From an uncultured Nitrosomonas sp. (GTDB lineage: Bacteria > Pseudomonadota > Gammaproteobacteria > Burkholderiales > Nitrosomonadaceae), in the NCBI GenBank assembly GCA_964639015.1, contig CAZXBP010000001.1, forward strand, positions 10,192 through 74,191: a DNA stretch of 64,000 nucleotides. Reading direction: 5' to 3'. How positions within the stretch are numbered: position 1 is the first letter of the stretch; each line of letters starts with the position of its first letter. The translations under genes and the position numbers were made by a program. The notes beneath the pieces were generated by a model that saw only the letters and a list, made by a program, of their open reading frames with translations, was not told the origin of the DNA and made no database searches. This document shows positions 1-10,444 of the stretch, one piece after another.

Positions 1-380
1 ATATCTAGCCCAATCGATTTTAATGCCTTACTGACATCACACTTGTTGTTGTAGGTTGAACGACTCAAAATCATTTCAGTACTGTGGACTAGGAAGTCAC
101 CCACTGTTGATTCTCTGCATTCAGCCAATTGATGAAATGAAACCCGCAGCTCCGATTTTTTGATCTGCTCAGGTGTGGCAAAAGGCAATTTCCAACCAAT
201 AAGGACACGAATAAAATCTTCAAGAGTTGCGTGCAATAAAACCACTGCTGCTCGCAGCAAATCGGCATCATGCTTTCCGTGCTTTTTCTCAGTATTTGCT
301 AAAGATTCATAGATCGAAACTAGGTTTCTAACCCGCTCAAGGTTTTCCTTGGAACGCTCCTGGAATTGTTGGAATTGCAT
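1..380 (-). CDS. partial CDS (first ~126 codons, runs off left edge): hypothetical, possibly HEPN-like helical protein
   Basis: My own minus-strand translation from the ATG at 380-378 gives MQFQQFQERSKENLERVRNLVSIYESLANTEKKHGKHDADLLRAAVVLLHATLEDFIRVLIGW... and stays open to position 1. It is absent from the ORF track because it has no stop in the window. The ATG overlaps the TGA of the upstream methyltransferase (ATGA). The HEPN-like idea rests only on the LLRAAVVLLHATLEDF helix pattern. Confidence 0.45.
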   Translation of the reverse strand, partial: MQFQQFQERSKENLERVRNLVSIYESLANTEKKHGKHDADLLRAAVVLLHATLEDFIRVLIGWKLPFATPEQIKKSELRVSFHQLAECRESTVGDFLVHSTEMILSRSTYNNKCDVSKALKSIGLD

Positions 381-3300
381 CACTGGTCTACCTTGCAAAT
401 CGAACGGTATAGTGCTTCGCGCCATTCGCCTTGCCGCTCAACCAGGCCGTCTGCGAGTAAGTCGGCGGTTGCTGCACTCCATTGACCGTCCGTAATGCCG
501 GTAGCAGCGAGGATGTCGGCCTTAAAGTGCCAGCCGTCGTGCGTATTTAAAAAATTAAGAATCGCTGTAGCTGGTGCCCCGCCATTGGCAGTAGTTTTGG
601 CCTCTGTGCCGGAATTAAGCGAGGACTGGGTCTGGGTGGCGCGGGCAACACGGTCTGAGGTTCGAGTTCCGGCATTGCCATGCAGTCCTTGGGCGACCTC
701 TTCCTCGTAACGTTCATGATTGAGTTTGAGCAGGCGTTGCAGAACTTCACGCCTAGCCTCATCGGAAATGGTGAAGCGTATACCTTGCTTTATTTTATGA
801 AATCCATGGCTAAGATCTAAATCATTCCAGCCGTATGATGCTGATGTGATAATGTCCATTTGAGTATGTAAGCAACGCAATTCTTGAATTTCATCTGACA
901 CATCACATTGGTCATGAAACCGGTTATAAAAAAGAGTGAGACCAATGCTATTTTTCAAAAGATATTCTTTTCGAAAATCATAATATTTTGAACCGATTGA
1001 TCGCAATTCATTATTAAATTCAGGAAATGGATAAGTTTGAAAGCAGGAAGTTGGTGTATAGCGTACATTTGCAACACCCCCCAATGTCGATGAGGTTTCG
1101 AACACCCAAATCCAATGAAAATTGCTCTGCATCACAGAAAAAAATGCATCGTCATCTACTGTAAAGCAGATTAACTGAACGTCGAAAATCATTTCTGGAT
1201 TGGCCCATGAAACTGCATTCGTTCCACTCACACGGGCTGTTACCAATACTCGTTGTATTTCCGATAATTTCTCATATAGCGCAATCCTTGGTCCACCGTA
1301 TTGCCACCACAGCCTTGCTGCTGTTTTATTAAAGCTGTTTATTGGTTTTAGCGCCAATCGTTCTGGCTTTACTCTCTCTTCAACTATTTTCAAATACTCA
1401 GGGTAATCTGCGGCAACTACAAAAGGATAATCTAAAGGTACTATGCCTTCAGTTAACATTTTATTTCGCTGTGTTTTATTTGCTGTTGCCCAGCTTATTT
1501 CCATGTCTACTTTCTTTAAAGGGTAATTAGAGAAATTTACAATCCATTTGCTTGGTTGCTGAATTGGACTAGAGTTAAAATCTTTACCATTTAAGTACGG
1601 AAGTATGATGTGTTCCTTAGTTGCAGCGGCATGTGAAAATAATTGCTTTACCTCACTTTCTGTTAGTACAAAACCACTACCACAAACATTCGATCCCTGA
1701 AAGGATTTGTTATCATTGGAAAACAATTTATTTGGTGTAGCCATTTGTTTGGACGCTTCTGTTAAGCCAGTAGAAATGTATTCAACCGACTTTCCATCTA
1801 GAAAATAGCTGCCTTTCCAGATGCCTGAGAATAGATGAACTACTGATATTTCCATACTTGCAGAGCCCGGCCAAGGTATACTGGCTCTTGCTGAAACAAT
1901 ACTTAATTTTTCGGTAAGTTGTTCAAGGCATACTGTTTTCGTATCCCCCTGTGATATTGAATTTGTGGCAATAAATCCCGAGCAGCGGTGCTCCTTAATT
2001 AAATATCTTATTCTTAGGAAAAAGAATGCGCATAGGTCTGCGGCCCCCCTTGCTCCAGTTCTTCCATTAGCTAAAAACTTAAAAAGAAAATCCCTGTAAG
2101 CTCTCCCAAAACAAGTGAAAAGCTTTAGTCCACCTAAAAACGGCGGATTCCCTACAATTCCGTCAAATCCACCACGTTCGAACACCTCCGGGAACTCCAG
2201 TGCCCAATGGAAAGGCTTCCGTGGTGGAGTACCTGCCGGAAGATCAATGGAAAGTGACTTTCTCGCCTCTGTAATAATCTTTCGTCCGGTCTCATTGTCG
2301 CCTTCAATATAGGTGGCCGCCCATGTGGAAAGCTTGTCCATGGCGGTATCCAGCGCTCGCTGACTGCTACCGGAAACCAGTGCTTCACCTATCATGGCGT
2401 CGGCGATATGTTCGATATATTCCAGCTTCTGCCGGGCCTGGTGGTCCAGTCGCTCCATGTATTGAATGTTCCGGATATCCTGGATCGGTGTTTCCCTTAG
2501 TTGTTTGCGGAGCGATAGTGCATCCTTGACCGCCGCTTCGATATTGGAAGCGAAGATTGAAATGGTTTTTTTCTTTTCAGGGTGCAGCGAAAACTTGGTC
2601 AACTGCTCTAGCTTATGCAGACCGAGCAGGCTGTCGCCGGAGCGGAGGTTGTGATCGAGAAAGCCGAACGGCCTGCCCTTGGCGAGGGTCACCAGCCAGA
2701 TGGAGAGTTTGGCCAGCTCCACGGCCAGCGGGTTGATGTCCACCCCGTACAGGCAGCGCTCGGCGACCAAGCGGCGGGCGATGGTCAGCCGTTCGTCGAG
2801 CTGGGACGGCAGGGGTTCCTCCGTATCTAGTTGGTCGAGAACTTCGCCGTCGACGGCGATGACTTTTCCGGCCGCCTCTTCGTGCAACCAAGCCTCCACC
2901 AGCTTCTCGCCGAGATAGCGACAGGCCTGAACGAGGAAGGCCCCCGAACCCATAGCGGGGTCGCAGACCTTGAGCTCGAGAATCTCCCGAGACGGCTTGA
3001 GCGTCCATTCTTCGCGGGGCTTGCCACCGGCCGGACCGACGTAAACCACCGGTTCCAGCGTGGTGGTAACGATACTTTCTGTAAGAGATTTCGGAGTGTA
3101 GTGGGTACCTGTCTCTCGCCGGTAGGTCCCAAGGGTGACCATGAACGAATTGTCGCGATAGACGATCGGGTCGTCCCAGGCGTCGGTGCGGATCAGGTTC
3201 GTGAAGGGGTGGATACGCTCGGCCAATGTGGTGTCTCCACCACAGACACCCAACACCCGCCCGAAGACCGTGTCGTCAGCGGGTTTGGATAGGCCGTTCC

Positions 3301-4774
3301 TGATGGCCGATTCGTTCCGCCCGGTGACGTCCAGGACCAATTTGACGAGCGCTGTTTCACCGTCCAGCCACGCCGATTCCAGTTCCGCGAGCGCCACGTT
3401 CGGGTTCTTAGCCTTCTGCGATCCCTGCAGGCCCAGGGTCACGCGGGGAGCGCGAGCCACGGTGTGTTCGAGGAGGCCTTCGTAGACATGCCCGATCTGC
3501 TCTACATCGAGCGCCCGGTAGGACAGCAGCAGCGCCCCGCCGGACTGTTCCAGGATCTGCAGCGAGTTCAAAAGCAGCAGCACGGTGCGGTTGTCGATGG
3601 GTAACGGCGCGGCCGAGGTATCCCGCCAAAGAGTGCCTTTGGCCCGGCCTTCCAGGAACGGAAAACGATCGGGATCGAACAGCGAGCCGCCCAAGGCTGG
3701 CATCCGCAGGCTTTCATGTTCGATACCGCCATAGACGGACCGGAAGACAGCGAGCAACCTGGCCCAGGCATCGTGACGGCGGTCGAGCACCTCCGGTCCG
3801 TGACGATCGGCTTCTTCCGCCAGTTGCCCGCGCAGGGTGGAGACGGCGTAGCACCGGTCGTAGACCGAATCGCCGAGGAGGAGCAGTCCTCGTTCTTCCG
3901 CGCACAGGACGAACACCAGCCGCATCATCACGGTCAGCCCGGCCTCGTAGAGCTCGGTGGGTTTAACGTCGTGGAGGAGTTCCCGGTTGCGGTCCTCGTC
4001 GGCCTTGTCGAGACACTGCACGAGCACCTCGACCGCACGACGAACCTGCTCGCCGAGGGTGTCGGTGACCTCCTCGTGATGCTCGAGGGACTTCGTAAGC
4101 AGAGTTTCCAGGGTGTCTTCCGCCGGGCCGAAACAGCGCCGGACACCGAGCAACGACTGGAAGGCTTTCAGCGTGATCGGCTCCTGGAACCATAGACGTG
4201 CGTACCACGATGCCTGGCTGGAGGTGGAGCCGACTGGCGCGTTGACCAACATCCATCGTTCGCCATCGGTCAGAAGCCCCACGCGCACGCCATGAGCGCG
4301 GCAAAGCAGAGTCATGCGCTCCTGGAGGGAAACGGGCCAGCCGTCATCTCGCTGAACCGATTCGAGATCGGTGTCCGGCGGCAGAACGGCGATGAACAGG
4401 CGCGACTTTCCGTCTGCGGGAGAACGGATGATCCAGTCGGGCTTGAAGGTCCCGGCGTGCTCCTGCGACGAAACGCTTGGGATTTCGTCCGGCCAGTCGC
4501 CCGCGTGGACGAGGGATTCCTGATCGTATTCGAGCATTTCCATCAGCACCAGCCGGACCCATTCCCGGTGCAATTCCGGCAACAGCCTGTCTTCCTGGTC
4601 CACCGCTTCGCGCCATTCCTCATAGGCAGCCCTGAGTTTCTGGCGTCGCGGAGTTGCCACCGCTTCCAGCCCTTGCGGGAACGCTTTGTCCAGCATGGAC
4701 ACGGTCAGGAACGGACCGGATATCTCGATCAGGGAGAGCCATTCGGCGTGTTGGGATAGATTGCCGGTTTTCAT
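380..4774 (-). CDS. large (about 1464 aa) gamma-class N6-adenine DNA methyltransferase of the MmeI / PglX / Type IIG-like family, with a ~560-aa N-terminal extension and a C-terminal TRD-like region
   Basis: GTHYTP (motif X), CDPAMGSGAFL (motif I, nt ~2942-2962) and GIVGNPPF (motif IV, nt 2138-2149). The helical spacer RLVFVLCAEERGLLLLGD and the post-catalytic IATNSISQGDTK...IPWPGSA are typical of MmeI/PglX-type enzymes. The likely start is MKTGNLSQ at 4774, where the ATG overlaps the HNH gene stop (ATGA). Confidence 0.85.
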   Translation of the reverse strand: MKTGNLSQHAEWLSLIEISGPFLTVSMLDKAFPQGLEAVATPRRQKLRAAYEEWREAVDQEDRLLPELHREWVRLVLMEMLEYDQESLVHAGDWPDEIPSVSSQEHAGTFKPDWIIRSPADGKSRLFIAVLPPDTDLESVQRDDGWPVSLQERMTLLCRAHGVRVGLLTDGERWMLVNAPVGSTSSQASWYARLWFQEPITLKAFQSLLGVRRCFGPAEDTLETLLTKSLEHHEEVTDTLGEQVRRAVEVLVQCLDKADEDRNRELLHDVKPTELYEAGLTVMMRLVFVLCAEERGLLLLGDSVYDRCYAVSTLRGQLAEEADRHGPEVLDRRHDAWARLLAVFRSVYGGIEHESLRMPALGGSLFDPDRFPFLEGRAKGTLWRDTSAAPLPIDNRTVLLLLNSLQILEQSGGALLLSYRALDVEQIGHVYEGLLEHTVARAPRVTLGLQGSQKAKNPNVALAELESAWLDGETALVKLVLDVTGRNESAIRNGLSKPADDTVFGRVLGVCGGDTTLAERIHPFTNLIRTDAWDDPIVYRDNSFMVTLGTYRRETGTHYTPKSLTESIVTTTLEPVVYVGPAGGKPREEWTLKPSREILELKVCDPAMGSGAFLVQACRYLGEKLVEAWLHEEAAGKVIAVDGEVLDQLDTEEPLPSQLDERLTIARRLVAERCLYGVDINPLAVELAKLSIWLVTLAKGRPFGFLDHNLRSGDSLLGLHKLEQLTKFSLHPEKKKTISIFASNIEAAVKDALSLRKQLRETPIQDIRNIQYMERLDHQARQKLEYIEHIADAMIGEALVSGSSQRALDTAMDKLSTWAATYIEGDNETGRKIITEARKSLSIDLPAGTPPRKPFHWALEFPEVFERGGFDGIVGNPPFLGGLKLFTCFGRAYRDFLFKFLANGRTGARGAADLCAFFFLRIRYLIKEHRCSGFIATNSISQGDTKTVCLEQLTEKLSIVSARASIPWPGSASMEISVVHLFSGIWKGSYFLDGKSVEYISTGLTEASKQMATPNKLFSNDNKSFQGSNVCGSGFVLTESEVKQLFSHAAATKEHIILPYLNGKDFNSSPIQQPSKWIVNFSNYPLKKVDMEISWATANKTQRNKMLTEGIVPLDYPFVVAADYPEYLKIVEERVKPERLALKPINSFNKTAARLWWQYGGPRIALYEKLSEIQRVLVTARVSGTNAVSWANPEMIFDVQLICFTVDDDAFFSVMQSNFHWIWVFETSSTLGGVANVRYTPTSCFQTYPFPEFNNELRSIGSKYYDFRKEYLLKNSIGLTLFYNRFHDQCDVSDEIQELRCLHTQMDIITSASYGWNDLDLSHGFHKIKQGIRFTISDEARREVLQRLLKLNHERYEEEVAQGLHGNAGTRTSDRVARATQTQSSLNSGTEAKTTANGGAPATAILNFLNTHDGWHFKADILAATGITDGQWSAATADLLADGLVERQGEWREALYRSICKVDQ

Positions 4775-5466
4775 TCCTCCCACCTCACCGAACAAGCCAA
4801 ATACTCGCTAAAGACCATTCGTGTCTCAATTGCATCACTTTGCGTGACGGAGTACCGGTAGCGTCCACGTTGTACATGAATCCAGCCGTTTTCGTAATTC
4901 TTATCGGCGACGAGAAGCCTCTGCATCGCCCGACTTCCGACTTCAGGCCAAAACGCCAATTCGCCGAAACCCAGGTTTTCGAAACAAGAAATGCTCTCTG
5001 GGTCAAGAGAGGTGAATGGAGCAATGCTCACTTCCGCCTCATCTAAAGGAACAAGCAACCCAAGTTCGTAAAGAACATGACCAGCCGCCACCTTCTTGAT
5101 GACATTCATAACCCGATCGTGTTCGACATCGAAAATAACTCCGTCATCCGTTTCTCTTCGAGCTCTTGCAATACGTTCAGCCAATCCAAGTGCGTGAAGT
5201 AGGGATTTCTTGGTAGTCTCACGTTGAAGTGAGTTTGAGTCAGCTGTTCCCGAGATAACGCAATCAATCAGACAAGCCATGTATTCTTCATCTAAGGAAT
5301 ATGCATGGTTGCATCTGGCGCAAGCATCCACGATAGGGAGATCAGATGGATAGGGTTCATCGAGAAACACTCTCGGAGGCACGTGTTCTCGTGTTTCAGG
5401 AAGCCCACCACAGTAGATGCACATGCCTCGAGTGCGGTCATCCGAGTAATCATCGAAATGCTTCAT
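4771..5466 (-). CDS. HNH-family endonuclease-like protein (231 aa)
   Basis: The N-terminal segment CIYCGG...REHVPPRVF...DACARCNH fits the CxxC...H...CxxC(N/H) HNH zinc-finger nuclease pattern. Its start overlaps the SNF2 stop (TAATG) and its stop overlaps the methyltransferase start (ATGA). Confidence 0.65.
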   Translation of the reverse strand: MKHFDDYSDDRTRGMCIYCGGLPETREHVPPRVFLDEPYPSDLPIVDACARCNHAYSLDEEYMACLIDCVISGTADSNSLQRETTKKSLLHALGLAERIARARRETDDGVIFDVEHDRVMNVIKKVAAGHVLYELGLLVPLDEAEVSIAPFTSLDPESISCFENLGFGELAFWPEVGSRAMQRLLVADKNYENGWIHVQRGRYRYSVTQSDAIETRMVFSEYLACSVRWEE

Positions 5467-8400
5467 TAGGCCGCACCTTCTCCTATGTGTGTCTGAGGAA
5501 CGAGGAACACGACGGCCACCGGGAACGTTCGATCCGCCGGGATGGCGTAGTGTTTCTCGATCGCGGTCTTTTCTTCTTCCCGCTCTTCCGGAATCCGGGC
5601 CAAACGGGCTTCCAAAGCTTGGGTATCCTTCTTGATTTGTCCGAGTTCTTCATCACTGAAGAGTGACAACTGAACAGGCTTGCCGTCTTGGCCCAATTCC
5701 TTCCTGATGCTCCCCTCCAACTCGTCGAGGATCGTCAGTACGTCGGCAACTTCGTTTTTCATCCGCCTGTCTAGGGTGTTCTCGAGAAACTTCAAGCGGT
5801 CCTTGGATCTCGCTTCGACGGCTGCCATGAGAGCGTTTTCGTGGCGCTTGAACCTGTCCTTCAGAACGTCGAACAGCGCCTGGTCGGGTTGGATAGGCGA
5901 ACCTTGGGCAACCAGAGCTTCCAGTTTGCCGACCTGGGCGATGCGGGCGAACCGTTTGTGTTCGATTTCGCCACCGGCGAGGGTCAGTTCTTCGTGAAGG
6001 CGATGGTGATCTCCGCCGGTGATCACCAAGCGCGACCAAACCGCCACCGCCGGGACTCGCAATTCACTGTCGGGTAAGGTTCGGAACGTCACGCGGTGAA
6101 GTCGTTTGACGTCGTCGAGCTTCCAGATCTCCTCGCGAAGCAGTCGCAGACACATCTGCACCAGCCGGTGGTTGAGATGGGCCAGGACGACATCGTCTCT
6201 GCCTTTGGCGACATCGTGATCGAAGGTGATCGGGCGGCGAACGCCGGTATGGGGATGTTCCAGCCCGACGGTGGCTCTGCCCCAGGAGCCGGGCAGGATG
6301 GGTACTTCGAAAACACTTCTCTTTTCACCGTGACTTGATCTAATGGGCTTGAGCGATGGCTTTTCCGCCAGTTCCAAAGCGACCTCAACCGCACGCGCAA
6401 TGTGTTCTGGCGACAGATGAAAATCGTTCTTCGCTTCCATAAGTTTGTCGTGAAGTCGGGCGATGCGCTCCTGTAGACGCTTTTCCGCCGTGACGAACTT
6501 TCTTGCCGAGGCGGCTTTTGCTTCTGCATAGGCGGTATCCAGACCACTGCGTCGACCGAGCATAGCCTCTTCGATCTGTCGGGCGATAACCGGTCCGACA
6601 CTACCGAGATCCTCCCGAATGGTGTCGATTTTGAGGACCGCACGCATCAGATACTCGTGATCGCCTGAGACATCTCCGGGTTTCCCGTGGCTTGATCGGG
6701 TATTGGCGGCCGCACTCGCGGAGAAGCCTTTCCCCACCGGATGCCAGATGAAAACGGCCTCTTCCTTCTGTCCGTGGCGGTCGATACGACCATTACGCTG
6801 TTCCATGACATTCGGATTCCACGGAATCTCGACATGGATGAGGTAGTTGCAGTGGTTCTGCAGGTCGATACCTTCCGAGGCCGCGTCGGTCGCGAGCAGG
6901 ATGCGAACCGGTGAAACGTCTGGATGCGCCTGGAATGCGGCTTTGCCCGATTCGCGCTCGTCCGGCAGCATGCTTCCATGAAGGTACATCAGGCGATCGC
7001 CGCCGTAGCCGTTGGCAGTGAGAATCTGATGGAGCCACGAATGGGTGGCCCGGTATTCGGTGAACAGAATCACTCGCTTTCCGTTCCACCGACCATCGGT
7101 CTTCAGATGGCTCTCGAGCCATTCGAGAATGGCGTTGGCTTTCGAGTCGACGCGGTTGCGTGCTTTCTCAGACCATGCGGTGAGCCGGTCGAGCATGTCT
7201 CTCTGCTCGCGTGACAGAGGTGGAGCGAGTTCGCCCACCACCTCGACCGCTTCATGCTGGGCTTCTTCGACCAGAGAGTCGTCCGAATACTCCTCTTCGG
7301 TTTTCAGGATCGCCTTACGCAGAATGCGATCGTCCATGGCGTCGCGATCGCCTTTGGGCTTGCCGCGTTCGAGAGTGTCCCGATGTTTTGCAAGTGTGAG
7401 CGCGAAAGCCATGGGCGAGGAAAAGAGGCGTTTCTTGAGAAGCATATGAACAAAATCGGTTCCATATTCGAAGCGCGTGCCCTTGACGCTCTTCGAACGA
7501 TCGACCGTGTACTCTCCGAGCAAGGCGTGGATCTGCCGCTCCTCCTCGGGGTAGTCGATTTCGAGACCTTCGAGCTTGCGTACCGGAAACACCGGCTTGC
7601 CGTTCGCGTCGACGATGTCGCTCTTCAGTCGGCGAACCATGACGCGGTGGAGCTGTTTCTCGTCCGGCATCACCGTCCTGGCGAACCGCTGATCGTCCAG
7701 CAACTCCAGCAACGAGGTGAACGACTCCTGATATCCGTTGTGGGGTGTTGCGCTCAAAAACAGCCGATGGGTGAAGTGAGGAGCGAGCGACCGGATCAGC
7801 CGCGTTCTCTGGCTTTCCAGGGCATACATGGATGCCGACGCCGGTGCGACGTTGTGCGCCTCGTCGACGACCAGAATGTCGAATTTTCTCGGATAGATAA
7901 TGTGAGGAGGGAGTACGTCCTTCAACAACCGGAAACCCTCGCCGCTCTTCATCCAGTCCATCGAGGTGACGAGACGTGGATAGGACGTCCAAGGATTCAC
8001 GTGGATGCCGCGTTCGCGACGAAGGCGCTTGATGTACTCGGTGTCGACGATCCGAAACTCGAGGCCGAATTTTTCCTGCATCTCGGTCTGCCATTTGACC
8101 TGCAGGCTGGCAGGGCAAACGACGAACACGGTCCTGGCGCGATGACGGACGAGCAGCTCCTGGATGACCAGTCCCGCCTCAATCGTTTTACCCAAGCCAA
8201 CATCGTCCGCGATGAGGAGATTGACGCGAGCCATCTCGACGGCTCGAACCAACGGATCGAGCTGGTAGTCCTCAATGGTTATCCCGCTCCGGAAAGGCGA
8301 TTGCAGAAAAGAGCGATCCGCGTTGGTGACGGCTCCCCAGCGAACGGCGTCGAGAAAGGCCTCCAGGCGGTCGTCGCTGTCCCAGCCGGTGATCGATGGC

Positions 8401-8654
8401 AGACCCGCCTTTTCCAGGACCTGGGCTCCGGCCTCCATCTGCCAGACGACCTGGATTTCTTCGCCCATGGAATCTTCGTCCAGGGAGGACAGGCCGACGA
8501 GGTGTTGATCACCGTTGCTCGCCGGTGACAAGGCTCCACTGGAAACATCGGTGACCACCCATTGACGACGTCGGACTTCGACGAATTGACCGGGCTCGGG
8601 AATGGCACCGAAACGAACGACACCGCTCGCCGAATTTGCACTGCTTGCTGTCAT
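5466..8654 (-). CDS. SNF2/RapA-family (DrmD-like) superfamily-2 helicase/translocase, 1062 aa
   Basis: Motif I LIADDVGLGKT, motif II VVDEAHNV, motif III LSATPHNG. The C-lobe has LLATDAASEGIDLQ and WNPNVMEQRNGRIDRHGQ. A ~400-aa extension of unknown function follows at the C-terminus. Confidence 0.9.
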   Translation of the reverse strand: MTASSANSASGVVRFGAIPEPGQFVEVRRRQWVVTDVSSGALSPASNGDQHLVGLSSLDEDSMGEEIQVVWQMEAGAQVLEKAGLPSITGWDSDDRLEAFLDAVRWGAVTNADRSFLQSPFRSGITIEDYQLDPLVRAVEMARVNLLIADDVGLGKTIEAGLVIQELLVRHRARTVFVVCPASLQVKWQTEMQEKFGLEFRIVDTEYIKRLRRERGIHVNPWTSYPRLVTSMDWMKSGEGFRLLKDVLPPHIIYPRKFDILVVDEAHNVAPASASMYALESQRTRLIRSLAPHFTHRLFLSATPHNGYQESFTSLLELLDDQRFARTVMPDEKQLHRVMVRRLKSDIVDANGKPVFPVRKLEGLEIDYPEEERQIHALLGEYTVDRSKSVKGTRFEYGTDFVHMLLKKRLFSSPMAFALTLAKHRDTLERGKPKGDRDAMDDRILRKAILKTEEEYSDDSLVEEAQHEAVEVVGELAPPLSREQRDMLDRLTAWSEKARNRVDSKANAILEWLESHLKTDGRWNGKRVILFTEYRATHSWLHQILTANGYGGDRLMYLHGSMLPDERESGKAAFQAHPDVSPVRILLATDAASEGIDLQNHCNYLIHVEIPWNPNVMEQRNGRIDRHGQKEEAVFIWHPVGKGFSASAAANTRSSHGKPGDVSGDHEYLMRAVLKIDTIREDLGSVGPVIARQIEEAMLGRRSGLDTAYAEAKAASARKFVTAEKRLQERIARLHDKLMEAKNDFHLSPEHIARAVEVALELAEKPSLKPIRSSHGEKRSVFEVPILPGSWGRATVGLEHPHTGVRRPITFDHDVAKGRDDVVLAHLNHRLVQMCLRLLREEIWKLDDVKRLHRVTFRTLPDSELRVPAVAVWSRLVITGGDHHRLHEELTLAGGEIEHKRFARIAQVGKLEALVAQGSPIQPDQALFDVLKDRFKRHENALMAAVEARSKDRLKFLENTLDRRMKNEVADVLTILDELEGSIRKELGQDGKPVQLSLFSDEELGQIKKDTQALEARLARIPEEREEEKTAIEKHYAIPADRTFPVAVVFLVPQTHIGEGAA

Positions 8655-9769
8655 TTAGATCGACAGTTCCTCCGTTTCGACCGATACACTCTCTTGGTCG
8701 CATCCGACACATGCGATAACAGGCTCGCACCGATAACCTCTCCGAGGGTGACGGGAACGGCATTACCGATCAATCTTCCAATGGATTTTTGACATATTTG
8801 TTCCCCAGGTCGAACGAATTCGTAATGCCGTGGAAAGCTTTGGAGAATCGCTCCTTCTCTCAAGGAAATAGCCCTATTTTGTTCGGGGTGTCCGAAGCGG
8901 CCGTTGCCGAAACCGTAGAATTGGGTTGTCATGGTTGGAGCGGGATTATCCCAAGTCATGCGGCCATAGACACTCGGATAAGTTTTTCCAGAAGACCTTT
9001 TGTGGCAGTCGACCACCAGATCTTTGGGCCAATCACGCCAAGTTCCACCAGGCCTGGAGACTTCTATCCGGCGCATGTTGATTTCTGAGAGAGCCGAACA
9101 TTGATGCAGCGGATCTTCATGGTAACTCGTTCCGGCATGAATTGCGGGAAGATCGCCGATTGCTTCCTTGACAGTTTGTGGTTTCTTACCGATTTCAGAT
9201 GGTGAGAGCAAGGATATGCTACCAAGTTTCGATGCCAACAGCACCAGACGATTACGTTGCTGTGGAACTCCGTATTCGGCGCAATTGACGACTTGATACA
9301 CTACCGAATACCCGTTACCCTTGAGATTGGTCACGAATTCGTCGAAGACATTTTGTTTGACGAGCCGAGGCACGTTCTCCATTGTCACCAGATCTGGTGA
9401 CAGCTCATTGACAAATCTCGAGAACTCCCGCAGGAGCCACCATCGCTTGTCGGCTTCTGTCGCTTTCTGGTTGTATCTGGAAAAGGTCTGACAAGGAGCG
9501 CAACCGGCCAGGAGCTTGATTCCATTCTTTCTGAAATGGGTCGCCAGCTCACCTGCTGACAGATCTTCCACCGACTTGAGCAGAAATTTAGCATTGTTGT
9601 TGATGATATAGGGGTATTCACAAGCCGGATCTATGTCCACGCCAAGACAAACATTGACTCCGGCCTTGACAAGACCGTGTGTCAGTCCACCCGCACCGCA
9701 GAATAAGTCGACGGCATAGATATTTCGCCCTTCCGTCGCTCTGACCTTTGTCCGTGATCCGTTTTTCAT
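8651..9769 (-). CDS. dcm: DNA (cytosine-5)-methyltransferase
   Basis: DLFCGAGGLTHG (motif I), GCAPCQTFS (motif IV, catalytic Cys), MENVPRL (motif VI), QQRNRLV (motif VIII) and IGNAVP (motif X). I prefer the start MKNGSRTK at 9769, which forms an ATGA overlap with the HTH gene stop, over the longer track ORF starting at 9904. Confidence 0.9.
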   Translation of the reverse strand: MKNGSRTKVRATEGRNIYAVDLFCGAGGLTHGLVKAGVNVCLGVDIDPACEYPYIINNNAKFLLKSVEDLSAGELATHFRKNGIKLLAGCAPCQTFSRYNQKATEADKRWWLLREFSRFVNELSPDLVTMENVPRLVKQNVFDEFVTNLKGNGYSVVYQVVNCAEYGVPQQRNRLVLLASKLGSISLLSPSEIGKKPQTVKEAIGDLPAIHAGTSYHEDPLHQCSALSEINMRRIEVSRPGGTWRDWPKDLVVDCHKRSSGKTYPSVYGRMTWDNPAPTMTTQFYGFGNGRFGHPEQNRAISLREGAILQSFPRHYEFVRPGEQICQKSIGRLIGNAVPVTLGEVIGASLLSHVSDATKRVYRSKRRNCRSK

Positions 9770-9984
9770 TGCTTGGAATCTTTGTCTTCCTTGAGCGAAT
9801 CGGCCGATGCGCCCCCAGCTTCGATCCATGAATCTACCTGGTCCTTCTTGAATTTCCAGAGACGACCCATGCGATGCGCTGGCATGTCGAATCGTTCGAT
9901 CCAACGATACACGGTATCACTGCTGACCCCAAGGTATTTACATATCTCATCCACCGATAACCAGCGATCTTCCATCTCGGTCAT
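9766..9984 (-). CDS. small excisionase/MerR-type helix-turn-helix DNA-binding protein (72 aa); first gene of the operon and possible controller
   Basis: LSVDEICKYLGVSSDTVYRWIERFDMPAHRMGRLWKFKKDQVDSWI matches the HTH_17 / AlpA / excisionase-type pattern. Confidence 0.7.
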   Translation of the reverse strand: MTEMEDRWLSVDEICKYLGVSSDTVYRWIERFDMPAHRMGRLWKFKKDQVDSWIEAGGASADSLKEDKDSKQ

Positions 9985-10020
9985 TTATTTGCTCTTGTCG
10001 TTCGCTTTTCCTTTTTCGTA

Positions 10021-10040
10021 ACATCCACCTTGGTGGATGT
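10021..10040. promoter_or_regulatory. palindrome ACATCCACC-TT-GGTGGATGT, 37-56 nt upstream of the HTH gene start; candidate operator
   Basis: A 9+9 inverted repeat read directly from the sequence. Two TG(A/T)CAGTTA direct repeats follow at 10071-10079 and 10094-10102. Confidence 0.35.
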
Positions 10041-10444
10041 CCAGTCAACGAGCTTGACGGTACCAACAGCTGACAGTTAAACCTAACGATCATTGTCAGT
10101 TAGAGCTCTGCCCACCCCATATAATGAAACACCCTTTTAGAGTACTTCCTCGGCATCCAACGCTAGGGACACCAAGGGTGGCCCTTGTTAGAGACAGCCG
10201 AATAAGCGTTCAATAGGGAAACATCTCGCATCGCTGCATCCGTGCGCGATAGTTCTTTGCACCCAAAAGTCGTGTTGCTTCACGTTAGAACCCTCAATTG
10301 CCATAAACAAACTGATAACAAAGAATGACAACACCATCAGCTGATCTTTATTGTTTCGTTCAAATTTCACCCAATCGGTGATAATAATTCAAGTGACATC
10401 AAAGCCGAAGATAGTCGGCAAGTTACATTTCATACAGTCAATTG

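What the first reader, a model, noticed from the sequence alone, without database searches (positions are those of the whole stretch)
380..4774. The giant m6A methyltransferase gene is a compositional chimera: a ~1.3-kb low-GC block replaces the post-catalytic/TRD region
Hand counts on individual 60-nt lines give roughly 60-70% GC across 2640-4770 (N-terminal extension and motifs X and I). They give about 52-57% for 381-780, which encodes the last ~130 aa including a winged-helix-like tail. They give only about 35-43% for ~780-2100. The drop begins right at or after catalytic motif IV (NPPF at 2138-2149). The low-GC block encodes the MmeI-type C-lobe and target-recognition region (IATNSISQGDTK ... 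NFHWIWVFETSSTLGG ...). In MmeI-family enzymes the specificity determinants lie in this region (established knowledge). A foreign or host-like cassette embedded in frame in a GC-rich gene therefore suggests a recent recombinational swap of target specificity. The downstream HEPN-like gene (1-380) and the HNH gene (about 45-50% GC) are also lower-GC than the SNF2 gene. The operon thus looks assembled from modules of different origin while keeping perfect translational coupling.
Basis: seen in the sequence. Interest (0 to 1): 0.62.

Follow-up and report, generated by a model that had tools for sequence, protein, structure and literature searches.

The report
Swappable AT-rich recognition cassette in DrmMI
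The low-GC stretch is real: it is the exchangeable DNA-recognition module of the methyltransferase of a DISARM anti-phage system, and relatives replace this module by recombination at the same boundaries, so it is a clear example of a known kind of event and not a one-off graft from the host.

Summary
Gene 380-4774 (minus strand) has GC3 of 0.75, then 0.32, then 0.55, with change points at codons 828 and 1339. The gene is DrmMI of a complete class 1 DISARM operon on an IncP-like conjugative element.

The first 720 residues are 86-95% identical to those of more than 100 relatives. The block after NPPF is only 11-43% identical in the same proteins.

- Nucleotide identity falls from about 0.90 to 0.50 at fixed points: codon ~724 in most loci and ~887 in four. 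It recovers at ~1320.
- Four-fold sites are saturated only inside the block.
- AU tests reject congruent trees.
- The block folds like the MmeI methyltransferase C-lobe plus recognition domain.
- Identical contigs from three independent studies rule out an assembly chimera.

- The block is not host-like. Host GC3 is 0.53, and the block sits near the 1st percentile.
- No donor was found. The best match is 59% identical.
- The AT-rich dip occurs in nearly all relatives, so it does not show a recent event.

Two other variable slots in the operon are also AT-richer than the backbone. This is a new member of a known kind, of moderate interest.

The parts
380..4774 (-). drmMI, the class 1 DISARM N6-adenine methyltransferase. 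It has 1464 codons from the ATG at 4774-4772 to the TGA stop at 382-380. All codon numbers in this report count from the upstream in-frame TTG at 4795.
   Evidence: PADLOC DrmMI model PDLC02643 scores 1818 bits over the full length. Pfam finds Eco57I and MmeI_Mtase. The start and stop were read directly.
2627..4774 (-). Conserved backbone part A1 (codons 8-723): the N-terminal domain plus methyltransferase motifs X and I-III, ending at ...FLDHNLRSGDSLLG. GC is 0.63 and GC3 is 0.77.
   Evidence: 86-95% aa identity and about 0.90 nt identity to about 30 loci. 4-fold sites are 0.70-0.81 identical.
2138..2626 (-). Variable module A2 (codons 724-886): the helical insert between motifs III and IV, ending in GNPPF. 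GC is 0.51 and GC3 is 0.55.
   Evidence: 80-86% identical to L017 and L018, and 65-68% to L004 and L009, but only 45-57% to most relatives. The ML breakpoint lies at codon 724-726 in most loci (22 of 30).
839..2137 (-). Low-GC specificity cassette B (codons 887-1319): methyltransferase motifs V-VIII plus an MmeI-type target-recognition domain and the first C-terminal helices. GC is 0.38 and GC3 is 0.30.
   Evidence: 22-43% identical, or not alignable, to proteins that are 86-95% identical in A1. 4-fold sites are saturated. It matches the MmeI 5HR4 profile and fold. In the block tree it groups with the distant clade P0122-P0130.
671..838 (-). Conserved segment C1 (codons 1320-1375, YGWNDLDLSHGFH...RFTIS...LLKLNHERY). 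It lies immediately 3' of the codon-1320 boundary of the cassette, where similarity returns.
   Evidence: Nucleotide identity returns to 0.80 against L017 and L018 at window 675-838. The 3' breakpoint lies at codon ~1320 in several loci.
383..670 (-). Variable C-terminal tail (codons 1376-1471), winged-helix-like. It belongs to the third replaced segment, together with the HEPN gene.
   Evidence: MarR_2 at E 2.5e-4 and HTH_27 at E 7e-3, both below Pfam cut-offs. The tail is absent from L017 and L018, where similarity resumes only in drmA.
1..380 (-). 5' part of a 216-aa HEPN (RiboL-PSP type) gene. It is the cargo of the variable slot between drmMI and drmA and continues left of the window. GC is 0.44.
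   Evidence: Pfam HEPN_RiboL-PSP at E 3.3e-13 on the full ORF L001:9966-10616. The motif RHKIVH is present. Other genes occupy this slot in relatives.
4771..5466 (-). 231-aa gene in the variable slot between drmD and drmMI. It has an HNH-like CxxC...H...CxxCNH signature. GC is 0.49.
   Evidence: Only a weak Pfam HNH_5 hit, E 0.1. The sequence was read. The slot holds Mrr_cat or Ea47 genes in relatives. There is no nt similarity to L017 across window 4762-5497.
5466..8654 (-). drmD (SNF2 helicase), part of the backbone. GC is 0.58.
   Evidence: PADLOC DrmD at 1500 bits. The backbone segment that spans it (window 5497-9972) is 86.5% nt identical to L017.
8651..9904 (-). C5 cytosine methyltransferase (drmMII-like). 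It probably pairs with the BbrUII/HgiDII-family restriction enzyme and Vsr that lie left of the window.
   Evidence: Pfam DNA_methylase at E 3e-53. NCBIfam restrict_BbrUII scores 860 bits on L001:1502-3493, and Vsr is on L001:1031-1477.

Best explanation
The gene is DrmMI, the adenine methyltransferase that sets the 'self' mark of a class 1 DISARM anti-phage system. The system is carried on a conjugative element.

DrmMI is built as a strongly conserved backbone that encloses an exchangeable specificity cassette. The backbone is the N-terminal domain plus catalytic motifs X and I-IV. The cassette holds motifs V-VIII and an MmeI-type recognition domain (codons 887-1319). A second, smaller variable module lies in front of it (codons 724-886).

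The cassette in this window did not diverge in place. Homologous recombination brought it in, with crossovers in the conserved motif blocks that flank it (...GDSLLG, GNPPF and YGW.DLDL.HGFH). Its source was a deeply diverged DrmMI lineage, whose nearest sampled members are P0122-P0130. Those proteins are only 46-58% identical to this one in the backbone.

The same replacement has happened many times in this family, so the cassettes form an old pool of alleles on a young, widely shared backbone.

Inferred, not shown: a new cassette changes the short non-palindromic motif that is methylated. If DrmMI is the specificity factor of DISARM as PglX is of BREX, the same swap would also change what the system treats as foreign.

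The low GC is a property of the cassette pool, not a date stamp. Cassettes are AT-richer than their backbone in nearly every relative. I infer that they have separate, more promiscuous histories, and that they lack the internal recombination that keeps the backbone homogeneous.
For: **Identity of the system**
- PADLOC finds DrmD, DrmMI, DrmA, DrmB and DrmC in operon order.
- Pfam finds the PLD and MZB domains.

**What the block is**
- The profile matches MmeI 5HR4 residues 475-686 and 760-882.
- The structure model has pLDDT 90.
- Its best fold match is 5HR4 at E 9e-20, followed by CamA, M.BseCI and PglX/BrxX.

**Mosaic structure**
- Among the hits (120 listed, 75-93% identical over aa 1-870), the same proteins are 23-43% identical or unalignable over aa 890-1330.
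- Pairwise identity in A1 and in the block is uncorrelated (Spearman -0.09 over 6555 pairs).
- Some pairs are 99% identical in A1 and 11% in the block, where one partner has a TaqI_C-type domain.

**Breakpoints**
- Nucleotide identity falls from 0.90 to 0.50 at codon 724-726 in most loci (22 of 30).
- It falls at codon 873-890 in L004, L009, L017 and L018.
- It recovers at about codon 1320.

**Age**
- 4-fold sites at identical residues are 0.70-0.81 identical in A1 but 0.09-0.40 in the block.

**Phylogeny**
- A1 data reject a clade of the query with P0122-P0125 (delta lnL 822, p-AU 8e-7).
- Block data reject a clade of the query with P0002-P0008 (delta lnL 248, p-AU 9e-53).
- Block data place the query with P0122-P0126 (SH-aLRT 96).

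**Family-wide dip**
- all show it.

**Real sequence**
- Identical contigs occur in independent studies.
- Identical metatranscriptome contigs lie inside the block.

**Mechanistic precedent**
- Serratia DrmMI methylates ACACAG, and unmethylated sites enhance restriction (bioRxiv 10.1101/2021.12.28.474362).
- PglX recognises the motif for both methylation and defence (PMC11341690).
Against: - No donor or near-identical cassette was found. The best match is 59% identical, so the direction and date of the exchange are unknown. The alternative that a high-GC backbone swept over older resident loci fits the same pattern.
- The groups used in the AU tests were chosen after I had seen the similarity tables. 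The trees were 'quick' LG+G4 trees.
- The loci were found through N-terminal peptide patterns, so 'family-wide' means this clade plus four distant operons.
- The methylated motif, and the link between the cassette and defence specificity, are untested for this protein.
- In Serratia, DISARM restriction depended only partly on the motifs.
- The reason for the AT-richness is inferred, not shown. In Dolichospermum the block is no AT-richer than drmA.
Confidence: 0.85

Rival explanations
1. A single recent graft from a low-GC or host-like donor replaced the recognition region in this particular gene, and the GC contrast dates the event as recent.
For: The GC3 contrast here (0.77 against 0.30) is among the largest in the family, and it is un-ameliorated. 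The boundaries are sharp.
Against: - The block is not host-like: it lies at about the 1st percentile of host GC3.
- The genome holds no paralogue.
- No relative of the host carries DrmMI.
- The best match anywhere is 59% identical, with saturated synonymous sites.
- The same dip occurs with unrelated cassettes in about 30 relatives and in four distant operons. It therefore cannot date this event.
Confidence: 0.08
2. The block diverged in place. Diversifying selection on the recognition domain, combined with AT-biased mutation, lowered its GC without any recombination.
For: Conservation and GC3 correlate along the gene (Spearman 0.83). Defence specificity genes are typical targets of diversifying selection.
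Against: - Synonymous 4-fold sites are saturated only in the block, while the flanks are 0.70-0.81 identical. Point mutation cannot produce that next to flanks with 90% nt identity.
- The breakpoints are sharp and recur at the same codons.
- Non-homologous TaqI_C-type domains sit in backbones that are 99% identical.
- Less conserved windows inside A1 keep high GC3.
- There is no reverse transcriptase and no template repeat for targeted mutagenesis.
Confidence: 0.03
3. The chimera is an assembly or binning artefact that joins two strains across conserved DrmMI sequence.
For: The genome is a 319-contig metagenome-type assembly. The conserved backbone is shared by co-occurring relatives: variant contigs in A1 are seen in runs X4 and X6.
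Against: - A 22-kb contig in run X1 covers window 1-5600 with 0 differences.
- A 5.3-kb contig in run X2 covers 1-4578.
- A 2.0-kb contig in run X3 covers 797-2766.
- All three have 0 differences and come from different studies, and together they span all the junctions.
- The reading frame is intact throughout.
Confidence: 0.01
4. This is a programmed, reversible switch (a shufflon-type inversion with silent cassettes), as described for some class 1 DISARM drmMI genes.
For: Programmed inversions that target DrmMI are documented (PMC9881135).
Against: - There are no inverted repeats of 18 nt or more in window 1-10200.
- There is no second copy of any DrmMI segment in the genome.
- No recombinase was seen among the ORFs of the operon.
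- No joints were seen in the contigs of eight runs.
Confidence: 0.01

Closest known systems
Class 1 DISARM DrmMI (for example Serratia sp. SCBI, which methylates ACACAG; bioRxiv 10.1101/2021.12.28.474362; system defined by Ofir et al. 2018)
   Same: - The operon has the same gene set: drmD, drmMI, drmA, drmB and drmC, plus an accessory C5 methyltransferase.
- DrmMI matches the PADLOC DrmMI model over its full length.
- It is a gamma-class N6A methyltransferase with an NPPF motif and a C-terminal recognition domain.
   Different: - This operon carries extra genes in two slots: an HNH-like gene between drmD and drmMI, and a HEPN gene between drmMI and drmA.
- It also carries a BbrUII/HgiDII-type restriction enzyme and Vsr after drmC.
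- Neither the methylated motif nor the defence activity has been tested.
MmeI-family type IIL/IIG enzymes (MmeI, PDB 5HR4) and BREX PglX/BrxX (8C45, 9EWZ; PMC11341690, PMC11842806)
   Same: - The low-GC block has the fold of the MmeI methyltransferase C-lobe plus recognition domain.
- In these families one polypeptide reads a short asymmetric motif, and changes in the recognition domain re-target it.
   Different: - Sequence identity to MmeI is about 14%.
- DrmMI has a roughly 550-residue N-terminal region with only a sub-threshold MmeI_N match.
- It works inside a multi-protein DISARM system.
- No cleavage activity is known for it.
Allelic replacement of the DNA-recognition domain in type III modA genes of Neisseria and Haemophilus (PMC3311624). 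Domain movement in type I and type III specificity genes is a related case that I recall from my own knowledge.
   Same: [quoted passage not shown]
- The region is exchanged en bloc by recombination.
- The recognition region has a lower GC content than its flanks, and the authors read this as horizontal acquisition.
   Different: - The methyltransferase class and the system are different.
- Here the exchanged unit starts inside the catalytic domain, after motif IV or after motif III.
- The backbone travels on a conjugative element across phyla.
- There is no phase-variable repeat tract.
Programmed inversions in class 1 DISARM drmMI (PMC9881135)
   Same: The same gene family, and the same outcome: alternative recognition regions on one backbone.
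   Different: That mechanism needs inverted repeats, silent cassettes and usually a recombinase at the locus. None is present here. Variation here is between lineages, not within a cell line.

Membership tests
Class 1 DISARM | Core triplet: drmA (helicase), drmB (DUF1998/MZB) and drmC (PLD) | tested here: met
   The genes lie left of the window on the same strand and contig, at L001:6118-9969, 4274-6121 and 3490-4302. PADLOC scores are DrmA 1687 bits, DrmB 265 bits and DrmC 344 bits. Pfam finds MZB and PLDc_2.
Class 1 DISARM | drmD (SNF2 helicase) and drmMI (N6-adenine methyltransferase) upstream of the core | tested here: met
   Window 5466-8654 is DrmD at 1500 bits. Window 380-4774 is DrmMI at 1818 bits over the full length.
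Class 1 DISARM | Methylation-dependent anti-phage and anti-plasmid activity | not testable with these tools
   This needs expression and plaque or conjugation assays. Contigs identical to the gene occur in a metatranscriptome, which shows at most transcription.
Gamma-class N6A methyltransferase with MmeI-type recognition domain | Motif I (DPAMGSGAF) and motif IV (NPPF), in gamma order | tested here: met
   Read in the translation at aa 612-620 and 883-886. Pfam finds Eco57I at E 7.6e-18 and MmeI_Mtase at E 8e-15.
Gamma-class N6A methyltransferase with MmeI-type recognition domain | Recognition domain with the MmeI fold after the catalytic domain | tested here: met
   - Pfam MmeI_TRD alone is below its cut-off (21.3 bits against 27).
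- The family profile hits 5HR4 at E 2.6e-19.
- The model (pLDDT 90) has 5HR4 as its best fold match: E 9e-20, TM 0.58.
Gamma-class N6A methyltransferase with MmeI-type recognition domain | N-terminal PD-(D/E)xK nuclease domain, as in MmeI | tested here: inconclusive
   Pfam MmeI_N reaches only E 3.8e-4 and 21 bits against a cut-off of 27, over aa 161-259. I did not examine the catalytic residues.
Recombinational recognition-domain allele exchange (modA-type) | Conserved flanks with a hypervariable core, and phylogenies of core and flanks that disagree | tested here: met
   and the AU tests.
Recombinational recognition-domain allele exchange (modA-type) | An identifiable donor or a shared identical cassette in another backbone | tested here: not met
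   The best cassette match is 59% identical among full-length proteins and 47% among short ones. Other cassette types are shared between different backbones (B at least 0.70 with A1 0.72-0.91), but this one is not.
Programmed-inversion (shufflon) specificity switch | Inverted repeats and silent partial cassettes at the locus | tested here: not met
   No inverted repeat of 18 nt or more lies in window 1-10200. No second copy of any segment exists in the genome.
Diversity-generating retroelement target | A reverse transcriptase plus a template repeat matching the variable region | tested here: not met
   Pfam and PADLOC scans of this operon's ORFs show no reverse transcriptase. Only one chance-level 18-nt direct repeat was found.

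The most novel reading that the evidence does not exclude
This DISARM operon family may act as a fixed high-GC scaffold with three contingency slots: the gene between drmD and drmMI, the DrmMI specificity cassette, and the cargo between drmMI and drmA. On this reading the slots are refilled from a cross-phylum, AT-rich pool.

The persistent AT-richness of the cassettes would be a signature of sequence that moves only as whole units. Such sequence never takes part in the homologous exchange (and any GC-biased repair) that keeps the backbone uniform.

If so, the GC3 contrast could serve as a general computational marker for specificity and cargo modules in defence operons.
Probability: 0.25. Interest if true: 0.55.

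Novelty: new member of a known kind. Interest (0 to 1): 0.35.

Why it matters
- **Where specificity lies.** The result shows where the specificity of a DISARM system is encoded and which segment is exchanged. The boundaries are codons 724 or 887 at the 5' end and 1320 at the 3' end. That gives exact junctions for domain-swap experiments that would test whether DrmMI is the specificity factor of DISARM, as PglX is for BREX.
- **A caution on method.** A GC step inside a gene is not enough to call a recent transfer. Here the dip is a standing property of the cassette pool.
- **Defence-gene hot spots.** The two flanking variable slots look like hot spots where new defence genes could be found.
- **What is not new.** Exchange of recognition domains in restriction-modification methyltransferases is well known, and so is their lower GC content.

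Tried and rejected
- **Plasmid and E. coli collections.** Megablast of window 1-10000 against both gave nothing useful. The only hit was a Deinococcus drmD at 73%.
- **PDB search with the single protein.** phmmer against the PDB found nothing. A 54-sequence profile was needed.
- **Search for a donor.**
  - Region-restricted search over aa 885-1335.
  - Search with the block alone, to reach short proteins.
  - Peptide-pattern scans of genome and metagenome contigs, which included two patterns from inside the block.
  - tblastn and blastn against the window's own genome.
  - None found a cassette more than 59% identical.
- **Shufflon and DGR.** Both were rejected on the repeat searches.
- **Amino-acid composition as the cause.** Rejected, because GC3 carries most of the step and one relative (L039) has a recognition block at GC 0.60.
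- **Relaxed constraint as the cause.** Rejected, because poorly conserved windows inside the backbone keep GC3 above 0.7.
- **Host taxonomy.** It was not needed for the composition test.
Full report
**1. Observation**

A 300-nt sliding profile shows 35-41% GC across about nt 750-2100, against 60-65% across 2550-4650 and about 55% at 450-750.

| Segment (nt) | GC | GC3 |
|---|---|---|
| 2627-4774 | 0.63 | 0.77 |
| 2138-2626 | 0.51 | 0.55 |
| 839-2137 | 0.38 | 0.30 |
| 383-838 | 0.53 | 0.51 |

Maximum-likelihood segmentation of third-position GC puts change points at codon 828 (log-likelihood gain 112) and codon 1339 (gain 11.5). Positions 1 and 2 change much less, from 0.55 to 0.43, so the step is mainly synonymous.

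The window is C1:10192-74191 of a 3.13-Mb, 319-contig genome with 48.5% GC. Host ORFs of 300 aa or more have GC3 of 0.53 ± 0.085. The conserved part of the gene lies above the 99th percentile and the block at about the 1st percentile. The only correction is that the fall is stepwise and starts upstream of NPPF.

**2. What the gene and its surroundings are**

The ORF matches the PADLOC DrmMI model over its full length (1818 bits) and carries Pfam Eco57I and MmeI_Mtase. The operon lies on the minus strand. Its genes, in order:

- C5 methyltransferase (8651-9904)
- DrmD (5466-8654)
- a 231-aa HNH-like gene (4771-5466)
- DrmMI (380-4774)
- a 216-aa RiboL-PSP HEPN gene
- left of the window: DrmA, DrmB, DrmC, a BbrUII/HgiDII-family restriction enzyme, and Vsr

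This is a complete class 1 DISARM system. It sits next to KfrB and KorB/ParB genes of a conjugative element. None of 36 congeneric genomes and none of 24 genomes from the same order has a DrmMI relative. The genes overlap as ATGA, TAATG and TGATG.

**3. The block is the specificity module**

- A 54-sequence profile hits MmeI (5HR4) at E 2.6e-19. MmeI residues 475-686 and 760-882 align to profile positions 874-1071 and 1186-1314.
- An AlphaFold model of aa 885-1335 has mean pLDDT 90.3.
- Its best PDB fold match is 5HR4 (E 9e-20, TM 0.58). CamA, M.BseCI and PglX/BrxX follow.
- The block therefore holds methyltransferase motifs V-VIII, the recognition domain and the first C-terminal helices.

**4. 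Different histories for backbone and block**

*Similarity.* A search with aa 1-870 found thousands of relatives, and the best 120 are 73-93% identical. Over aa 890-1330 the same proteins are 23-43% identical or cannot be aligned, and some have a TaqI_C-type domain instead. Residues 1321-1360 are again 60-93% identical.

*No co-variation.* Among 115 proteins, pairwise identity in the backbone and in the block is uncorrelated (Spearman -0.09 over 6555 pairs). Some pairs are 99% identical in the backbone and 11% in the block.

*Breakpoints.* Codon-level comparison with 30 loci shows nucleotide identity falling from about 0.90 to 0.50. The fall is at codon 724-726 in most loci (22 of 30) and at codon 873-890 in L004, L009, L017 and L018. 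Identity returns at about codon 1320.

*Age.* Four-fold degenerate sites at identical residues are 0.70-0.81 identical in the backbone but 0.09-0.40 in the block, which is saturation. Divergence in place is therefore excluded.

*Best relatives of the block.* Searches with the block found at best 55-59% identity (P0122-P0125). Those proteins are also only 57-58% identical in the backbone. Short proteins reach 47% at most.

*Tree tests.*
- Backbone columns reject a clade of the query with P0122-P0125 (delta lnL 822, p-AU 8e-7).
- Block columns reject a clade of the query with its backbone neighbours P0002-P0008 (delta lnL 248, p-AU 9e-53).
- Block columns place the query with P0122-P0126 (SH-aLRT 96).
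- Caveat: I named these groups after seeing the similarity tables, and the trees are quick LG+G4 trees.

**5. The low GC is a family trait**

In about 30 loci from genome and metagenome contigs, the backbone is 0.59-0.65 GC (GC3 0.67-0.81). The mutually unrelated recognition blocks are 0.39-0.54 GC. The one clear exception is L039 at 0.60.

Family-mean GC3 is about 0.72 up to codon 847 and 0.40-0.49 in the block. Poorly conserved windows inside the backbone keep GC3 above 0.7, so the dip follows the recombination block and not amino-acid conservation.

Four distant DrmMI genes from named genomes also show a dip, though a smaller one:

| Genome | Backbone GC3 | Block GC3 |
|---|---|---|
| Burkholderia | 0.71 | 0.53 |
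| Methylomonas | 0.56 | 0.36 |
| Spirulina | 0.60 | 0.41 |
| Dolichospermum | 0.40 | 0.21 |

In Dolichospermum the block is similar to drmA (GC3 0.22), so there it is no AT-richer than that neighbour. The GC step is therefore not evidence for a recent event in this genome. It is not host-like either, and the genome holds no paralogue that could have donated it.

**6. The whole operon is a mosaic**

Against L017, the backbone is 86.5% identical across window 5497-9972, 89.6% across 2129-4762, 80.5% across 675-838, and 92.8% from drmA onward. Three intervals have no similarity:

- window 4762-5497: the HNH-like gene here, Mrr_cat there
- window 838-2129: the specificity cassette
- window -246 to 675: the winged-helix-like tail plus HEPN here, PRTase-CE plus a reverse transcriptase there

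All three intervals are AT-richer than the backbone. In other relatives the slot between drmMI and drmA holds one of the following:

- KAP NTPase
- DUF7380-DUF4209
- a UvrD-like helicase with DUF2290
- a Ser/Thr kinase
- a GHKL-type restriction enzyme
- PIN

**7. Artefact and switch alternatives**

*Assembly artefact.* Contigs with zero differences span the junctions in three studies: a 22-kb contig in X1, window 1-4578 in X2, and 797-2766 in X3. Further identical pieces occur in X5 and X6. Estuary metatranscriptome contigs are identical at 1087-1227 and 1825-1970, inside the block.

*Programmed switch.* There are no inverted repeats, no silent copies and no joints. The inversion switch described for some drmMI genes (PMC9881135) therefore does not apply here.

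**8. Mechanism**

Shown:
- The gene has a modular structure.
- The breakpoints recur at the same codons.
- The cassette is old and phylogenetically discordant.
- It has an MmeI-type fold.

Inferred:
- Crossovers in the conserved motif blocks replace the cassette.
- A new cassette changes the methylated motif. Serratia DrmMI methylates ACACAG, and unmethylated sites enhance restriction.
- By analogy with PglX, which reads the motif for both methylation and defence (PMC11341690), one swap would re-target both functions together.
- The direction of exchange (cassette imported, or backbone swept over an older locus) cannot be decided.
- The cause of the AT-richness is not established. I favour separate, more promiscuous histories of the cassettes, with no internal recombination.

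**9. Comparison and novelty**

Exchange of recognition domains between conserved flanks is established for type III modA, including a lower GC content in the exchanged domain (PMC3311624). It is a known principle for type I systems, the MmeI family and PglX.

Two earlier notes of this scan, on other genomes, reached the same reading for DrmMI. I re-tested their claims here and found one difference. In this clade most exchanges start at codon ~724 and not at NPPF.

The finding is a well-documented new member of a known kind.

Noticed in passing
L001:1-10700 (contig C1 left of the window) and window 8651-9904: The operon continues left of the window with DrmA, DrmB and DrmC, so it is a canonical class 1 DISARM system. 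A C5 methyltransferase lies at the 5' end. A BbrUII/HgiDII-family restriction enzyme (NCBIfam 860 bits) and Vsr lie at the 3' end. Together these look like a type II restriction-modification system split around the DISARM genes.
   Followed up: partly
window 1-675 and left to about -246; L007:10265-12151, L009:10308-13147, L011:10980-13022, L015:12164-14302, L017:12159-14718, L019:7742-8815, L051:10055-13030: The interval between drmMI and drmA is a cargo hot spot. It holds HEPN here. In relatives it holds PRTase-CE plus a reverse transcriptase, KAP NTPase, DUF7380-DUF4209, a UvrD-like helicase plus DUF2290, a Ser/Thr kinase, a GHKL restriction enzyme, or PIN. It could be mined for new defence genes.
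   Followed up: partly
window 4771-5466: The slot between drmD and drmMI holds a 231-aa protein with a CxxC...H...CxxCNH pattern (HNH_5 at only E 0.1). Close relatives carry Mrr_cat or Ea47-like genes in this slot. Distant operons (Burkholderia, Methylomonas) have no gene there.
   Followed up: partly
window 1-5600: This exact allele occurs at 100% identity in metagenomes from at least five studies (bioreactor, activated sludge, soil, wastewater, estuary). In two runs (X4, X6) variant contigs appear only in the conserved backbone, which suggests that related DISARM elements co-occur.
   Followed up: partly
whole genome G000 against 60 relatives: None of 36 genomes of the same genus, and none of 24 from the same order, has a DrmMI relative. 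The DISARM island therefore arrived with the KorB/KfrB/Trb-type conjugative element.
   Followed up: partly
L011:10774-11069: A 297-nt partial copy of the drmA 5' end (82% identical) lies inside the cargo slot of this relative. It may be a scar of recombination at the slot boundary.
   Followed up: no
window 383-670: The C-terminal ~95 residues of DrmMI give weak winged-helix hits (MarR_2 at E 2.5e-4). About half of the relatives have such a tail and the rest end about 90 residues earlier. The tail varies independently of the recognition cassette.
   Followed up: partly
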